Notes: a model not told the origin generated them from the letters alone. A stretch of 64,000 bases of DNA from Thermoplasmatales archaeon I-plasma (GCA_001856825.1 ATMD01000003.1:91796-155795), one strand, 5' to 3'. Counted from the first letter of the stretch, positions 39,223-42,386 are shown. Program-made: numbers and translations.

Positions 39223-39510
39223 TCAAAGGAATCTTAGGGCTTCCCTTCCCTTCATCCCCTCTTTTACTCCCGACTCTCTCGCCTTCGCACTTATCTTAAC
39301 GACATCTTTGTTGAGAAGGTCATCGAACGTATTGACGCCTGAAATCGACACGGCTGAAGCGCCTGTCTTGTCTGCAGCTTCCATGTTGAGATATCCACAC
39401 ATTAGAAATCCTTTCTTGCCAGTTATCAAGACTATTGGCGCAGGTTTAGTGTCGATCTTTATTCCTGTATATATTTCTCCCTCAACTGACAGATTTTCAA
39501 TTTGTATCAT
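39223..39510 (-). CDS. DUF1805 (YunC-like) protein, last gene of the polymerase cassette
   Basis: 95 aa. PIVLITGKKGFLMCGYLNMEAADKTGASAVSISGVNTFDDLL fits the DUF1805 pattern. Its start overlaps the polymerase stop by 14 nt. Confidence 0.55.
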   Translation of the reverse strand: MIQIENLSVEGEIYTGIKIDTKPAPIVLITGKKGFLMCGYLNMEAADKTGASAVSISGVNTFDDLLNKDVVKISAKARESGVKEGMKGREALRFL

Positions 39511-41479
39511 AATCCTCGATGCTCTTCTGGTATATTATAGGTTGATGCCTATATGGATAGGATATACTCTCCCACGCCATTTCCAGCTTTCTAAGGTAAT
39601 AGTTTTTGTCGTACCTGTTCTCTAGATTCTCTATGTCCACTTCACCCCTCTTCTCGTTCAGTACAAACATCGACACCTTGTCACCTGGTCCCACATTTCT
39701 TGCTTTTTCTATAGCCATTTTCCTTATGCCATTAACTTTGTAAGCTTCAGGTCTGCGGGTGGCGACTATTGACATTCTTAGTTCTGAGTCATCGACCTTT
39801 CCATTTGTTATCCTGAACTTGTAGGAGTTGTATATTTTCTCAACCTCATCATAGTGTTTATGAAAACCTGCCAAGTTTGGGACCCTTGAATAAATGTTGA
39901 GTATTTCCTCCTGCATCTCCTTGCATACATTAGGAAAGTCTGTCCTGCGCAGTTCTATTCCTCTGACCTTGAATTTCCCATTTTCCATGAGTCCAAAATA
40001 CCTGTTGAGTGCACCAGTTCCATCCCTTGCCGGGAGGAACGCTATCCACTTGTAGAAACCCTCAAGAGAAATCTTGAGCTTGCTCATTTCTTCTATCCTT
40101 CTCATTACTTTATGGATGTCTCCACTTCCCTGCAGCCATAGGGAATCAACTATTCCGTGTATTGCAGTGAAACCTTCTTCTTCAGCTATTTTTATGCTGT
40201 CTGTCAATATCTTACGTCCCAGGCTGGTTATGGATTCATGAACCTCTATCCTGCCGAACTTTGCATTCTTATAGCCGGTGTAACCAAATGATGTCAACAG
40301 AAGCCATTTCAGGACAGCATCTCTACCCCTGTATCTTTCGTCAGATTTCTTTTTGTTCTTATAGTACAAGCGGAGGTCAAGAAGATCTGATAGGAATTCA
40401 GGCAGCATCCCCCTTCTATCCATGCATATGTCATATCCTAGGTCATCTATTCTCCTGAAATTTTCGCACTTTACGTTAATTGTCTCCGGAGAAAGGTTGT
40501 AATTAACTATTATTGATGGGTACATTGAGCTGAAATCTATCTCAAAGACATTTTCATATACGCCAGGCACTGGCTGGAGGTATAGCCCCCCCTTGTCAGC
40601 GCTTATGAACGTATCAATATTCTTGATCATCTCATGGTCGTCCTTGTAAAGAGGGATCATTATGCCCTTCTCCAGAGATTTCTTTACCTCATATGAAGAA
40701 ACAGCTGTTCCGGGGGTTATGCGTGCAGAATGGAAGATGGGAAGGGAGGTGATCTTGGAAATAGTAATCAACCCCTCAAGACCACCCTCGCTGAAAATGA
40801 ATGACGTTTCTCTGTCTATGTGGGGTATCCCATAAATTATGAATCCACTTGATCTATGACTAACTCTTCCATATGAAGTGAATGTTCTCTCCTTGCTCCT
40901 AGATGTTCTGGGAGTGTATCCTTCCTTCCTGGCAAGCTCGAAGAATCTAGGGAAATATCTGTCGCCACCTTCAGATACTATCATGTTGGCATCTTTCATG
41001 TTGGAGAAGAAGTAATCGATAGATGAAGGGATGTTCGTGAACATCTGCCCATTTATCTCAATCTCCTCCAGCGAATCAATGAATTTTATTTCAAGGACAT
41101 TAACCTTAGGTATGTCAAAATTCATTTCATCTTCATCATTGAAAAAATGAAGGTTGTTCTTGACCATGAATGATTGTACAATGTTTACGTCTGCGTTGTA
41201 AATCTTACAATCTCTGAAGTTTCCTATTCGTTCTATTGCCGTTATCACCTCGCTTAACCTGTTCGGAGGTAGGGTTATGGTCACGACCTTTTTATAGGAA
41301 AATATGTCCCTCCGCTCTTCTAGTTTCCACTTGATCCAAGGTACAAGATCTATCTCGTCGGTGATTCTCTCAAGACGGTCTCCAGTGACGTATATAGTGT
41401 GCTCATAGTTCCATCTCTTTATATTCCTGTTTTCATCTATGGTAAAGATGGCCCTGCCGCCCCATGCATCAATGATCAT
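39497..41479 (-). CDS. Divergent family-B DNA polymerase (PolB2-like; degenerate exonuclease region and motif C)
   Basis: Motif A EIDFSSMYPSIIVNYNLSPET, motif B LLTSFGYTGYKNAKFG, motif C AIHGIVDSLW (canonical Y-x-DTDS). I could find no canonical Exo I-III. The N-terminus MIIDAWGG...IYNADVNIVQSFMVKNNL is PolB-like. Confidence 0.75.
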   Translation of the reverse strand: MIIDAWGGRAIFTIDENRNIKRWNYEHTIYVTGDRLERITDEIDLVPWIKWKLEERRDIFSYKKVVTITLPPNRLSEVITAIERIGNFRDCKIYNADVNIVQSFMVKNNLHFFNDEDEMNFDIPKVNVLEIKFIDSLEEIEINGQMFTNIPSSIDYFFSNMKDANMIVSEGGDRYFPRFFELARKEGYTPRTSRSKERTFTSYGRVSHRSSGFIIYGIPHIDRETSFIFSEGGLEGLITISKITSLPIFHSARITPGTAVSSYEVKKSLEKGIMIPLYKDDHEMIKNIDTFISADKGGLYLQPVPGVYENVFEIDFSSMYPSIIVNYNLSPETINVKCENFRRIDDLGYDICMDRRGMLPEFLSDLLDLRLYYKNKKKSDERYRGRDAVLKWLLLTSFGYTGYKNAKFGRIEVHESITSLGRKILTDSIKIAEEEGFTAIHGIVDSLWLQGSGDIHKVMRRIEEMSKLKISLEGFYKWIAFLPARDGTGALNRYFGLMENGKFKVRGIELRRTDFPNVCKEMQEEILNIYSRVPNLAGFHKHYDEVEKIYNSYKFRITNGKVDDSELRMSIVATRRPEAYKVNGIRKMAIEKARNVGPGDKVSMFVLNEKRGEVDIENLENRYDKNYYLRKLEMAWESISYPYRHQPIIYQKSIEDYDTN

Positions 41480-41694
41480 TCGATTTCTTTTCTAATTTCC
41501 AATAGCACGAAGAGAAGAAAAACAAAATATGGGTCTAGACTTGTTATGGAGCCTTCTGGGATGTGAAGTTTTACTTTTCTTATGAAATCTTCGATAATTT
41601 CTTTATTGCCACTGCTCATCAATTTCTCTGCTTTTCTTATCTCTTCAATTATGCTTTCTATTTCCATTCTAAGGCTAGGGGTGTTTCTTCCCAT
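41476..41694 (-). CDS. Small hypothetical protein (72 aa) coupled to the polymerase gene
   Basis: Its stop overlaps the polymerase ATG by 4 nt. It has a helical N-terminus and a hydrophobic C-terminus. Confidence 0.4.
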   Translation of the reverse strand: MGRNTPSLRMEIESIIEEIRKAEKLMSSGNKEIIEDFIRKVKLHIPEGSITSLDPYFVFLLFVLLEIRKEIE

Positions 41695-42128
41695 TTCTTG
41701 ACCACCTCTAGTATCTTCCTATGGAATACATTGCCCAACCACGGTGGTCTAAACTCTTCATCTTCCACCAAATAGACTATGTTTGGCGTTCCAGTCCTAC
41801 GTGAGATACCTTCCAAGGCGTTTGATATGTTGAGTAAAACATCCTCTTTCCACTCCTTAAGTTCAGAGAGTCTGACTACTATGAAAATTGCGAAGTCATC
41901 ATAGTAAAAATCCTCCACTATCGTTTTTTGGAACTGATACATGTTGAGGATTCTCTGGATGTAGAGGCGATCACCCATTTTCCTCTTCAAATAATGGGCA
42001 TCGACAAACACCCCATCCCCAAGGAGCAACAACGTCTTCCCATAACTGCTAACAAAATCCTCTAAGAAAATGGAATTGAATTCCTCCATTTCCATTAGAT
42101 ATGAATGCCTTGTGTTAGCCCTGAACAT
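41658..42128 (-). CDS. Hypothetical protein (156 aa), first gene of the polymerase cassette
   Basis: ORF overlaps the 72-aa ORF. No motif recognised. Confidence 0.45.
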   Translation of the reverse strand: MFRANTRHSYLMEMEEFNSIFLEDFVSSYGKTLLLLGDGVFVDAHYLKRKMGDRLYIQRILNMYQFQKTIVEDFYYDDFAIFIVVRLSELKEWKEDVLLNISNALEGISRRTGTPNIVYLVEDEEFRPPWLGNVFHRKILEVVKKWEETPLALEWK

Positions 42129-42386
42129 AAGTAAAGATCAGCTTAACCCTATTTTAATCTTATATAGCGAATTGAAAATTGAAAAAATTGAAAAATTGAT
42201 TTCAAGAAGCCTGGAAGTTTAAACTTGGCGTATTGAGAAAAATCAGGCCTCAAGAAATTAATTAACTGTGCCCAATAAATTTAATTGAAATATTAGGCAT
42301 ATGTAACCCAAACCCCCAAATTAGACAGATGAACGAAAACAAAGAATAAAAGATGTATAAAAAAAAGGAATGAATTTCTGTGAGTT

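What the first reader, a model, noticed from the sequence alone, without database searches (positions are those of the whole stretch)
39223..42128. Overlap-coupled four-gene cassette around a divergent, exonuclease-less family-B DNA polymerase
Four minus-strand ORFs are chained by start/stop overlaps: a 156-aa unknown, a 72-aa unknown, a 660-aa PolB-like protein and a 95-aa DUF1805 protein. The overlaps lie at 41658-41694, 41476-41479 and 39497-39510. The polymerase keeps motif A (DFSSMYPS) and motif B, but motif C reads HGIVDS instead of Y-x-DTDS. I find no Exo I-III motifs. This resembles the 'inactivated' PolB2 group described for archaea, whose function is unknown. A fixed partnership with DUF1805 and two small proteins would suggest a dedicated complex for repair, priming or a structural role rather than a lone relic. 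This is my best candidate for an uncharacterised system among the core genes in this window.
Basis: partly seen in the sequence, partly recalled or inferred. Interest (0 to 1): 0.6.

Follow-up and report, generated by a model that had tools for sequence, protein, structure and literature searches.

The report
Known PolB2 repair-polymerase operon plus DUF1805
The four overlapping genes are real, but three of them are the already published archaeal iRadA-PPB2-PolB2 operon for a DNA-damage-tolerance polymerase, and the fourth (DUF1805) is attached to it only in this archaeon's own family.

Summary
All four minus-strand ORFs, the three overlaps, motif A (DFSSMYPS), motif C (HGIVDS) and the missing Exo I-III motifs are as described.

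The cassette is not an uncharacterised system.
- The 660-aa protein is a PolB2 (Dpo2-type) polymerase. It scores above the cut-off of NCBIfam equivalog NF004416.
- The 72-aa "unknown" is PPB2 (arCOG07300). It starts MGRNTPSLR (published MGRT arm, Arg3 and Arg9), models as three helices, and lies directly upstream of PolB2 in 25 of 30 loci across the class.
- The 156-aa "unknown" is a badly decayed, P-loop-less RadA-like protein (iRadA). Its model matches RecA/Rad51/RadA folds, and it holds the first position in the published gene order.

This operon was described by Makarova 2014 and Timinskas 2025. Sulfolobus PolB2 is an active, damage-induced translesion extender, not a relic.

DUF1805 is not a general partner. 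It follows PolB2 in 18 of the 80 best-matching DUF1805 loci (one genome per species), all from one Thermoplasmatales family. It lies elsewhere in Thermoplasma and other relatives.

A T-rich tandem repeat upstream of the operon is conserved and may be a regulator site.

The scan reached the same verdict on three other genomes.

The parts
42172..42200 (-). T-rich tandem repeat upstream of the operon (ATCAATTTTTCAATTTTTTCAATTTTCAA). Candidate binding site for a transcription regulator.
   Evidence: Read. The block TTCATTTTTTCA(A/T)TTTTTTCA is near-invariant in 6 relatives while the flanks vary (alignment A5), and in 17 of 17 further family loci that include the upstream region. Similar CATTTTTTCATTTTT elements lie upstream of the iRadA-like gene in same-order loci including Thermoplasma acidophilum. 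Function is inferred, not shown.
42150..42167 (-). TATA-like promoter core (CTATATAAGATTAAAATA). The TTAAAATA box is centred about 25 nt before the ATG at 42128, which implies a leaderless or near-leaderless transcript.
   Evidence: Read. (C)TATAAAGTTAAAATA is conserved at the same distance in family loci. Promoter function is inferred from position and conservation only.
41658..42128 (-). iRadA-like protein, 156 aa: RecA/RadA-fold core without Walker A/B or an N-terminal domain. First gene of the operon.
   Evidence: No Pfam or NCBIfam hit. AF2 model pLDDT 82.5, pTM 0.78. The top Foldseek PDB hits are all UvsX/RecA/Rad51/RadA/KaiC, E 8e-5 to 1e-3, TM 0.45-0.59. hhalign to the same-position ORFs of same-order genomes gives probability 98.4%, E 4e-15. 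Same-position ORFs in the wider class hit Pfam Rad51 above its cut-off. The P-loop position reads GDGVFVDA and the Walker B position reads VVRLSE.
41476..41694 (-). PPB2 (arCOG07300), 72 aa: small three-helix partner of PolB2 with the N-terminal arm MGRNTPSLR.
   Evidence: phmmer finds homologues directly upstream of PolB2 in 25 of 30 class loci. Alignment A4 has consensus MGRTxPTxR with G2, R3 and R9 nearly invariant. AF2 gives pLDDT 87.3, pTM 0.72, helices 8-23, 28-42 and 55-71 and a free N-terminal arm. This matches the published description and monomer scores (PMC11791011).
39497..41479 (-). PolB2 (Dpo2-type) family-B DNA polymerase, 660 aa: decayed exonuclease domain, motif C HGIVDS, ADKGG loop, C-terminal PIP-like QKSIEDY.
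   Evidence: NCBIfam NF004416 equivalog, 538.9 bits against a cut-off of 516. Pfam PF00136. PDB PolB matches cover residues 239-653 only. Motif alignment, exo motifs, C-termini. The paper's supplement lists Thermoplasmata PolB2 entries with the same HGIIDSLW motif in type 1a operons.
39223..39510 (-). DUF1805 protein, 95 aa. Its start overlaps the PolB2 stop by 14 nt. Lineage-specific fourth gene of unknown function.
   Evidence: PF08827, E 3.4e-23. Homologue of T. acidophilum TA1206, PDB 1qw2, E 1.4e-19. It is the only DUF1805 copy in this genome. It follows PolB2 in 18 of the 80 best-matching DUF1805 loci (one genome per species), all with at least 60% identity to this protein. It is unlinked elsewhere.

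Best explanation
Genes 1 to 3 are the known archaeal PolB2 'mutasome' operon in its commonest order, iRadA-PPB2-PolB2 (type 1a). By analogy with Sulfolobus Dpo2, PolB2 is a working DNA polymerase without proofreading. It extends primer ends that are mismatched or sit opposite a lesion. The single motif A aspartate and the second motif C aspartate are kept; the first motif C aspartate is replaced (HGIVDS). According to published AlphaFold models, a PPB2 trimer inserts one N-terminal MGR(T/N) arm, with Arg3 and Arg9, into a cleft between PolB2 and the ATPase-dead RadA-like subunit, next to the DNA. PolB2 holds iRadA through a loop just before its D(K/R)GG motif, here ADKGG. A C-terminal QKSIEDY on PolB2 may bind PCNA. 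The operon is probably transcribed as one leaderless mRNA from a TATA box about 25 nt before the first ATG. A conserved T-rich tandem repeat just upstream probably controls it, possibly as a DNA-damage-responsive site. DUF1805 is the genome's single copy of a widespread archaeal gene. It moved to the 3' end of this operon in the ancestor of one Thermoplasmatales family (the group that includes 'I-plasma') and has stayed there, overlapping the PolB2 stop codon. It is therefore probably co-expressed with PolB2, but nothing shows that it is part of the polymerase complex. Shown here: gene identities, motifs, folds, gene order and its distribution, and conservation of the upstream repeat. Inferred: enzyme activity, the complex, damage induction and co-transcription.
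For: PolB2: NF004416 above its cut-off. HG(I/V)(V/I)DS and D(K/R)GG are conserved in 30 of 30 class loci, whereas the genome's own two other PolBs read YGDTDS. The exo motifs are lost. PPB2: MGRNTPSLR start, adjacency in 25 of 30 loci, three-helix model. iRadA: RecA-superfamily fold hits only, 98.4% hhalign link to same-position ORFs in the same order, and Rad51 Pfam hits for same-position ORFs in the class. Literature: the operon and complex model (PMC4104785; PMC11791011, with Thermoplasmata type 1a entries in the supplement); Dpo2 activity (PMC8764526); Orc1-2-dependent damage induction (PMC6061795). An Orc1/Cdc6 paralogue lies convergent to PolB2 in same-order loci, and an orthologue exists about 72 kb away in this genome. 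DUF1805 distribution. Promoter repeat.
Against: The 156-aa protein has no significant direct sequence link to RadA. It has no Pfam hit, a profile search of the PDB found nothing, and hhalign against Rad51-positive iRadAs gives only 10.9% probability (E 0.0028), although the alignment is in register. Its assignment rests on fold, position and a chain of intermediates. No multimer modelling was possible, so the complex is taken from the literature. The upstream repeat is not the Sulfolobus ANTTTC consensus in most relatives. Similar sites elsewhere in this genome precede a TnpB-like gene and two small unknown ORFs, not repair genes.
Confidence: 0.88

Rival explanations
1. DUF1805 is a true fourth component or dedicated accessory of the PolB2 complex in this family, for example a DNA-end or lesion-binding factor, an assembly factor or a regulator. 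On this view the four-gene cassette is a functional unit.
For: The order iRadA-PPB2-PolB2-DUF1805, with an 8-14 nt stop/start overlap, is kept in 18 species-level genomes as PolB2 diverges to 54% identity. It also survives changes of flanking genes on both sides: MCM or glutamate dehydrogenase upstream; M19 peptidase, Hjc resolvase or a PUA-domain gene downstream.
Against: The link appears to have arisen once: all linked DUF1805 proteins are at least 60% identical to this one and all unlinked ones are at most 54%. None of the 62 other DUF1805 loci and none of the 29 other class PolB2 loci shows the link. The gene is the only DUF1805 copy in the genome, so it is a relocated orthologue of TA1206 and not a specialised paralogue. 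Elsewhere DUF1805 sits among unrelated genes: ribosomal proteins and an eIF2-alpha-like gene, RNase Z, ScpB/PurD. One family member (L034) has the three-gene operon without DUF1805 downstream. An overlapping stop/start itself makes separation unlikely, so retention could be neutral.
Confidence: 0.2
2. The locus is a decaying relic. PolB2 is catalytically dead and the small ORFs are non-functional remnants with at most a structural role, which was the older 'inactivated PolB' view.
For: The first motif C aspartate is lost and the exonuclease domain is degraded. The RadA-like gene has lost its ATPase motifs and nearly all detectable sequence similarity.
Against: All three genes are intact, without stops or frameshifts, in every relative examined. 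Specific motifs are strongly conserved: MGR..R in PPB2, D(K/R)GG and HGIVDS in PolB2, LLLLGDG and IQRILNMYQ in iRadA. The Sulfolobus orthologue with the same substitutions is a robust polymerase and is needed for damage-induced mutagenesis (PMC8764526; PMC7390963).
Confidence: 0.05
3. The 156-aa protein is not RadA-derived. On this view it is an unrelated alpha/beta protein, or a KaiC/RadB-type offshoot, that replaced iRadA at this position.
For: There is no significant direct profile match to Rad51/RadA. The exhaustive search found only 10 cluster representatives, all short Thermoplasmata-type proteins. KaiC and FlaH also appear among the fold hits.
Against: The weak hhalign alignments are in register on the family's signature columns: GDG against DGGN, IQRILNMYQ against VARAFTAYQ, and the conserved Trp. 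The best fold hits are recombinases. Makarova 2014 already reported one iRadA group (arCOG07763) so decayed that only HHpred detects RadA similarity, with complementary distribution in the same operon position.
Confidence: 0.07

Closest known systems
Archaeal PolB2 (Dpo2) operon or 'PolB2 mutasome': iRadA-PPB2-PolB2, gene-order type 1a (Makarova, Krupovic & Koonin 2014, PMC4104785; Timinskas, Timinskas & Venclovas 2025, PMC11791011)
   Same: Same three gene families in the same order and orientation. PPB2 has the MGR(T/N) arm with Arg3 and Arg9 and three helices. PolB2 has the D(K/R)GG loop, a substituted first motif C aspartate and a dead exonuclease domain. The RadA-like partner lacks ATPase motifs and the N-terminal domain. 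Thermoplasmata type 1a operons with the same HGIIDSLW motif are in the paper's own dataset.
   Different: The iRadA here is unusually short (156 aa) and too diverged for Pfam Rad51. A DUF1805 gene overlaps the PolB2 stop codon; DUF1805 does not occur in that paper's text or in its held supplement files, which were cut when stored. No orc1/cdc6 gene is adjacent, unlike in Thermoplasma and many euryarchaea.
Sulfolobus/Saccharolobus islandicus Dpo2 (experimentally characterised PolB2; PMC8764526, PMC7390963, PMC6061795)
   Same: Same PolB2 group features (IID/IVD-type motif C, no exonuclease). The expected role is damage-inducible translesion extension.
   Different: Different phylum. No biochemistry or expression data exist for the Thermoplasmatales enzyme. 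The upstream element here is a T-rich tandem repeat rather than the defined ANTTTC element bound by Orc1-2.
TA1206 of Thermoplasma acidophilum (PDB 1qw2), the solved DUF1805 / PF08827 representative
   Same: The 95-aa protein aligns over residues 1-86 at E 1.4e-19 and shares the invariant G(F/Y)xMCGYLN core.
   Different: In T. acidophilum (locus L045, whose DUF1805 reads identically to the 1qw2 chain over the first 50 residues shown) the gene is about 800 kb from the PolB2 operon, next to ribosomal-protein genes. Here it overlaps PolB2.
E. coli Pol V mutasome (UmuD'2C-RecA) and bacterial ImuA-ImuB-DnaE2 cassettes
   Same: Same functional logic: a damage-tolerance polymerase paired with a RecA-family protein and a small accessory protein. 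PMC11791011 draws the same comparison.
   Different: Pol V's catalytic subunit is a Y-family polymerase and its RecA is active. The components are not homologous apart from the RecA fold.

Membership tests
PolB2 (Dpo2) group of family-B polymerases | Family-B polymerase domain with motifs A and B intact | tested here: met
   PF00136, E 1.8e-24. NF004416 equivalog, 538.9 bits against a cut-off of 516. DFSSMYPS and KxxxNSxYG-like LKWLLLTSFGYTGY are aligned.
PolB2 (Dpo2) group of family-B polymerases | First Asp of the motif C DxD replaced, second Asp kept | tested here: met
   HGIVDS against YGDTDS in the genome's two other PolBs. HG(I/V)(V/I)D(S/C) in 30 of 30 class loci.
PolB2 (Dpo2) group of family-B polymerases | Exonuclease active site lost or domain decayed | tested here: met
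   Exo I FDIE aligns to LEIKF, Exo II NxxxYD to EGGDRY-F, and the Exo III region is deleted. PDB PolB matches start only at residue 234-240.
PolB2 (Dpo2) group of family-B polymerases | Conserved D(K/R) loop motif about 150 residues before motif C | tested here: met
   ADKGG at residues 294-298, 147 residues before the motif C Asp. D(K/R)GG is present in most of the class loci aligned and sits in an insertion absent from the canonical PolBs. The motif is defined in PMC11791011.
PolB2 (Dpo2) group of family-B polymerases | Polymerase active, no proofreading, extends mismatched or lesion-opposed termini | not testable with these tools
   Known only for Sulfolobus enzymes (PMC8764526).
PPB2 (arCOG07300) | Small (about 70-90 aa) all-alpha protein of three helices | tested here: met
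   72 aa. AF2 pLDDT 87.3, pTM 0.72, helices 8-23, 28-42 and 55-71. The published monomer values are pLDDT 86 and pTM 0.72.
PPB2 (arCOG07300) | Conserved N-terminal arm 'MGRT' with Arg3 and Arg9 | tested here: met
   MGRNTPSLR. G2, R3 and R9 are nearly invariant in alignment A4.
PPB2 (arCOG07300) | Encoded next to PolB2 in the same orientation | tested here: met
   4-nt ATGA overlap with PolB2. Homologue directly upstream of PolB2 in 25 of 30 class loci.
PPB2 (arCOG07300) | Forms a trimer that docks on PolB2-iRadA | not testable with these tools
   No multimer modelling was available.
iRadA (inactivated RadA; arCOG07763/04294/08101) | RecA/RadA core fold | tested here: met
   AF2 pLDDT 82.5. 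The top Foldseek PDB hits are UvsX, RecA, RAD51 and RadA, E 8e-5 to 1e-3, probability 1.0.
iRadA (inactivated RadA; arCOG07763/04294/08101) | Walker A/B ATPase residues lost; no N-terminal helical domain | tested here: met
   The loop after beta-1 reads GDGVFVDA, with no GK(S/T). The beta-3 end reads VVRLSE, with no Asp. The protein is only 156 aa.
iRadA (inactivated RadA; arCOG07763/04294/08101) | Detectable sequence homology to RadA/Rad51 | tested here: inconclusive
   No Pfam hit. hhalign to Rad51-positive iRadAs gives probability 10.9%, E 0.0028, but in register. The link to same-order same-position ORFs is 98.4%; their own link to Rad51-positive iRadAs is weak (25.9%). The literature reports the same difficulty for arCOG07763.
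iRadA (inactivated RadA; arCOG07763/04294/08101) | First gene of a type 1a operon, upstream of PPB2 | tested here: met
   Same-position ORFs in the class hit PF08423 Rad51 above its cut-off in 8 of the 10 tested.
DUF1805 (PF08827) | Matches the Pfam model above the gathering score | tested here: met
   82.1 bits against a cut-off of 29.5. 1qw2 homologue.
Orc1-2 / ANTTTC DNA-damage regulon (Sulfolobales) | ANTTTC element 23-55 nt upstream of the ATG, bound by an Orc1-2-type protein | tested here: inconclusive
   The window has one ATTTTC at about -50 inside a T-rich tandem repeat, but most relatives read CATTTTTTCA. An Orc1/Cdc6 paralogue is adjacent in same-order genomes and about 72 kb away here. 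Binding was not tested.

The most novel reading that the evidence does not exclude
In this Thermoplasmatales family (the group that includes 'I-plasma') DUF1805 has been recruited as a fourth, translationally coupled component or regulator of the PolB2 translesion complex. The operon would be switched on through the conserved TTCATTTTT tandem repeat by an as yet unidentified, possibly Orc1/Cdc6-type, damage-response regulator. If so, this would give DUF1805 its first functional context and would define a euryarchaeal DNA-damage promoter element.
Probability: 0.2. Interest if true: 0.5.

Novelty: new member of a known kind. Interest (0 to 1): 0.22.

Why it matters
Mostly as a correction. The two 'unknown' proteins can be annotated as iRadA and PPB2, and the polymerase as a probable translesion extender rather than a dead relic. 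Two small points are not in the literature I could search. First, a DUF1805 gene overlaps the PolB2 stop codon throughout one Thermoplasmatales family. This is a weak but testable lead for a protein family that has a solved structure and no known function. Second, a strongly conserved T-rich tandem repeat sits just upstream of the operon promoter across the order, including Thermoplasma acidophilum, which can be cultured. It could serve as a handle on DNA-damage regulation in Euryarchaeota, where no such promoter element has been defined.

Tried and rejected
1. Pfam and NCBIfam scans of the 156-aa and 72-aa proteins gave no hits. A precomputed weak 'DUF8156' label on a relative's PPB2 was not reproduced by my own scan.
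2. A profile of the 156-aa family against PDB sequences gave nothing significant.
3. The exhaustive profile search of 1.84 billion representatives found only 10 proteins, so no bridge to RadA by sequence.
4. hhalign of the 156-aa family, and of the same-order family, against Rad51-positive iRadAs gave low probabilities. I rely instead on fold, position and in-register motifs.
5. I looked for a regulon with the upstream 21-mer. It has 4 sites in the genome against 0.4 expected. The other three precede a TnpB-like gene and two small unknown ORFs, so no DNA-repair regulon emerged.
6. DUF1805 neighbourhoods in eight other genomes show no conserved context and no repair genes.
8. The genome has two canonical PolBs with FDIE, NxxxYD, YxxxD and YGDTDS.
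Full report
**Observation**

One search confirms four minus-strand ORFs at exactly the stated coordinates:
- 41658-42128, 156 aa
- 41476-41694, 72 aa
- 39497-41479, 660 aa
- 39223-39510, 95 aa

They are chained by overlaps of 37, 4 (ATGA) and 14 nt. The 95-aa product is DUF1805 (PF08827, E 3.4e-23). The 660-aa product has a family-B polymerase domain (PF00136).

I aligned the 660-aa protein with 29 relatives from the same class and with the two canonical PolBs of the same genome.
- Motif A (FEIDFSSMYPS) and motif B are kept.
- Motif C reads HGIVDS where the canonical enzymes read YGDTDS.
- At Exo I the canonical FDIE aligns to LEIKF.
- At Exo II NIDGYD aligns to EGGDRY-F.
- The Exo III region is deleted.
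- Solved PolB structures match only residues 239-653.

The polymerase is not the replicative enzyme: the genome has two other PolBs with all motifs intact.

**What the three upstream genes are**

The polymerase scores 538.9 bits on NCBIfam equivalog NF004416, whose cut-off is 516.

The literature search led to two papers. Makarova, Krupovic & Koonin 2014 (PMC4104785) and Timinskas, Timinskas & Venclovas 2025 (PMC11791011) describe a conserved archaeal and bacterial operon of three genes:
- PolB2;
- a small helical protein, arCOG07300, renamed PPB2;
- an ATPase-dead RadA homologue, iRadA.

The commonest order is iRadA-PPB2-PolB2, called type 1a. The 2025 paper gives testable signatures:
- PPB2 has three helices and an N-terminal 'MGRT' arm with Arg3 and Arg9.
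- PolB2 has a D(K/R) loop motif about 150 residues before motif C.

*The 72-aa ORF is PPB2.*
- It begins MGRNTPSLR.
- phmmer finds its homologues immediately upstream of PolB2 in 25 of 30 loci sampled across the class.
- Their N-termini read MGR(T/N/S)xP(T/S)xR.
- Its AF2 model (pLDDT 87.3, pTM 0.72) has a free N-terminal arm and three helices. The published monomer scores are nearly identical.

*The polymerase fits the PolB2 signatures.*
- It has ADKGG 147 residues before the motif C Asp.
- D(K/R)GG sits in an insertion present in most of the class PolB2s aligned and absent from the canonical PolBs.
- The paper's supplement lists Thermoplasmata type 1a operons whose PolB2 reads HGIIDSLW.

*The 156-aa protein is the hard case.*
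- It has no Pfam or NCBIfam hit.
- Only 25 close homologues turned up, all in Thermoplasmata.
- The exhaustive profile search found only 10 cluster representatives.
- A profile search of the PDB found nothing.

Several lines still point to iRadA.
- Its AF2 model is confident (pLDDT 82.5, pTM 0.78).
- All top Foldseek matches in the PDB are RecA-superfamily recombinases or KaiC: UvsX, RecA, RAD51, RadA, with E 8e-5 to 1e-3.
- The loop after beta-1, where the P-loop should be, reads GDGVFVDA. The Walker B position reads VVRLSE. The ATPase is therefore lost.
- The ORFs in the same position in same-order genomes, including Thermoplasma, align to it at 98.4% hhalign probability.
- Of ten same-position ORFs tested, the eight from other orders of the class hit Pfam Rad51 above its cut-off; the two from the same order did not.
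- The direct hhalign to those Rad51-positive proteins is weak (10.9%, E 0.0028). It is nevertheless in register on the family signatures: GDG against DGGN, IQRILNMYQ against VARAFTAYQ, and a conserved Trp.
- Makarova 2014 reported exactly this situation for arCOG07763, an iRadA group so decayed that only HHpred sees RadA.

I conclude that the protein is an iRadA, with modest residual doubt.

**Mechanism**

The following is taken from the literature and was not tested here.
- S. islandicus Dpo2 is a robust polymerase without exonuclease. It inserts poorly opposite lesions but extends mismatched or lesion-opposed termini efficiently (PMC8764526).
- It is the only damage-inducible polymerase of that organism and is needed for damage-induced mutagenesis (PMC7390963).
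- Its induction depends on Orc1-2 binding an ANTTTC promoter element (PMC6061795).
- AlphaFold models give a PolB2: iRadA: PPB2x3 pentamer. One PPB2 arm lies in the cleft next to the DNA. PolB2 grips iRadA through a Rad51-oligomerisation-like motif before the DK residues.

The window's proteins carry all the sequence features this model needs.

Within the family, the PolB2 C-terminus keeps a PIP-like Q-x-x-(I/L/M)-x-x-Y, here QKSIEDY. The disordered iRadA tail keeps WEE(I/T)PxxLEW(K/R). Either could be a clamp-binding or partner-binding peptide. This is inference.

**DUF1805**

This is the only part not covered by the published work. The term does not occur in the 2025 paper or in its held supplement files, which were cut when stored. 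Only two unrelated papers in the library mention it.

*It is not a general partner.*
- None of the 29 other class loci has DUF1805 within 1.5 kb of PolB2.
- In complete same-order genomes the two genes lie hundreds of kb apart. Examples: G106, PolB2 at 0.48 Mb and DUF1805 at 1.27 Mb; G099, 1.10 Mb against 0.40 Mb.
- G106 is probably T. acidophilum, because its DUF1805 reads identically to TA1206 / PDB 1qw2 over the first 50 residues shown.
- DUF1805's neighbours elsewhere are unrelated and variable.

*It is conserved within one family.* I scanned one genome per prokaryote species and kept the 80 best DUF1805 loci.
- 18 carry iRadA-PPB2-PolB2 immediately upstream. All 18 are Thermoplasmata or Thermoplasmatales MAGs, including 'I-plasma'.
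- All 18 have DUF1805 at least 60% identical to this one.
- The other 62 loci, at most 54% identical, have none of the three genes in their flanks.
- The PolB2/DUF1805 overlap is 14 nt in 14 loci, 8 nt in 3 and 59 nt in 1.
- The block survives changes in the flanking genes.
- One family member has the three-gene operon without DUF1805 downstream (L034).

This genome has a single DUF1805 gene. The most economical reading is one relocation of the ordinary DUF1805 gene to the end of the operon in the family's ancestor. Co-expression follows, and the overlap helps retention. A functional link to PolB2 is possible but unsupported. I give it about 0.2.

**Upstream region**

The 259-nt gap before the first gene contains three elements:
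- a T-rich tandem repeat, ATCAATTTTTCAATTTTTTCAATTTTCAA, at 42172-42200;
- then CTATATAAGATTAAAATA;
- then the ATG about 25 nt after the TTAAAATA box, which suggests a leaderless transcript.

The block TTCATTTTTTCA(A/T)TTTTTTCA is almost invariant while its flanks are not. This holds in 6 relatives and in 17 of 17 further family loci. Related CATTTTTTCATTTTT elements precede the iRadA-like gene in same-order genomes including T. acidophilum.

Within this genome the 21-mer, allowing up to 3 changes, occurs 4 times against 0.4 expected. The other three sites precede a TnpB-like gene and two small unknown ORFs, so no repair regulon is evident.

In same-order genomes an Orc1/Cdc6 paralogue lies convergent to PolB2, as the literature reports for many euryarchaea. 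Here the best orthologue is about 72 kb away, outside the window.

The repeat is probably a regulator site. That it responds to DNA damage is a hypothesis.

**Verdict**

The core is an ordinary member of a known, published system, and its function is no longer 'unknown'.

Two minor points may be new: the family-restricted DUF1805 attachment and the conserved promoter repeat.

After I had reached this reading, one search showed that earlier follow-ups in this scan reached the same verdict for the same four-gene cassette in three other genomes. One of them also noted the promoter repeat.

No multimer modelling tool was available.

Noticed in passing
window 42172-42200 (minus strand); also L052-L068, L072 and L005-L011 upstream of the iRadA-like gene: A conserved T-rich tandem repeat, TTCATTTTTTCA(A/T)TTTTTTCA, sits just upstream of the operon's TATA box. 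It is near-invariant across the family, and related forms occur across the order, including the Thermoplasma acidophilum locus. More distant class loci carry ACTTTCGCTC or TTCACTTTCACTC instead, which contains the Sulfolobus-type ANTTTC.
   Followed up: partly
G000:C2:332240-332260 (-), C1:272909-272929 (+), C4:99531-99551 (-); all outside the window: Three further copies of the promoter-like 21-mer (up to 3 changes) occur in this genome, making 4 sites in all against 0.4 expected. Each lies 47-83 nt upstream of an ORF on the right strand: a 53-aa unknown, a 416-aa TnpB-like protein (Cas12f1-like_TNB, OrfB_IS605) and a 78-aa unknown.
   Followed up: partly
L001 (G000:C3:19200-20408 region) and L002 (G000:C4:62012-63223 region): The genome encodes two canonical family-B polymerases (frames of 792 and 773 aa) that are 75% identical, both with intact exo and YGDTDS motifs. 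This is either a fairly recent paralogue pair or a second strain in the bin.
   Followed up: no
L042:4001-4531: A solitary iRadA-like gene (176 aa, 44% identical to the window's) lies next to a TnpB-like gene, with no PolB2 or PPB2 on the 8.5 kb shown. It may be a mobile or orphaned copy.
   Followed up: no
L005-L009 and L011 (same-order genomes); G000:C3:59024-60070: An Orc1/Cdc6 paralogue (362-369 aa, Cdc6_lid and AAA domains) lies convergent, directly downstream of PolB2, in Thermoplasma and other same-order genomes. In the window's genome the best orthologue (26% identity, E 4e-32) is about 72 kb away and DUF1805 occupies the downstream position.
   Followed up: partly
window 39497-39540 (PolB2 C-terminus) and 41658-41700 (iRadA C-terminus): The PolB2 C-terminus ends in a PIP-like QKSIEDY(DTN), conserved as Q-x-x-(I/L/M)-x-x-Y in the family. 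Same-order PolB2s end in motifs such as QSDLSWWF. The disordered iRadA tail keeps WEE(I/T)PxxLEW(K/R), with two nearly invariant Trp.
   Followed up: partly
G013:C1:876553-877368, G066:C1:83214-84164, G075:C14:204-1193: Genomes of one same-order family (f2) lack a clear PolB2 orthologue but have PolB-like frames of about 580-612 aa that match only the polymerase core at E about 1e-23 to 1e-29. They may be another degenerate PolB lineage.
   Followed up: no
L037:8174-8542: In one family member a Holliday-junction resolvase gene (Endonuc_Holl) follows DUF1805 on the same strand, directly after the four-gene block.
   Followed up: no
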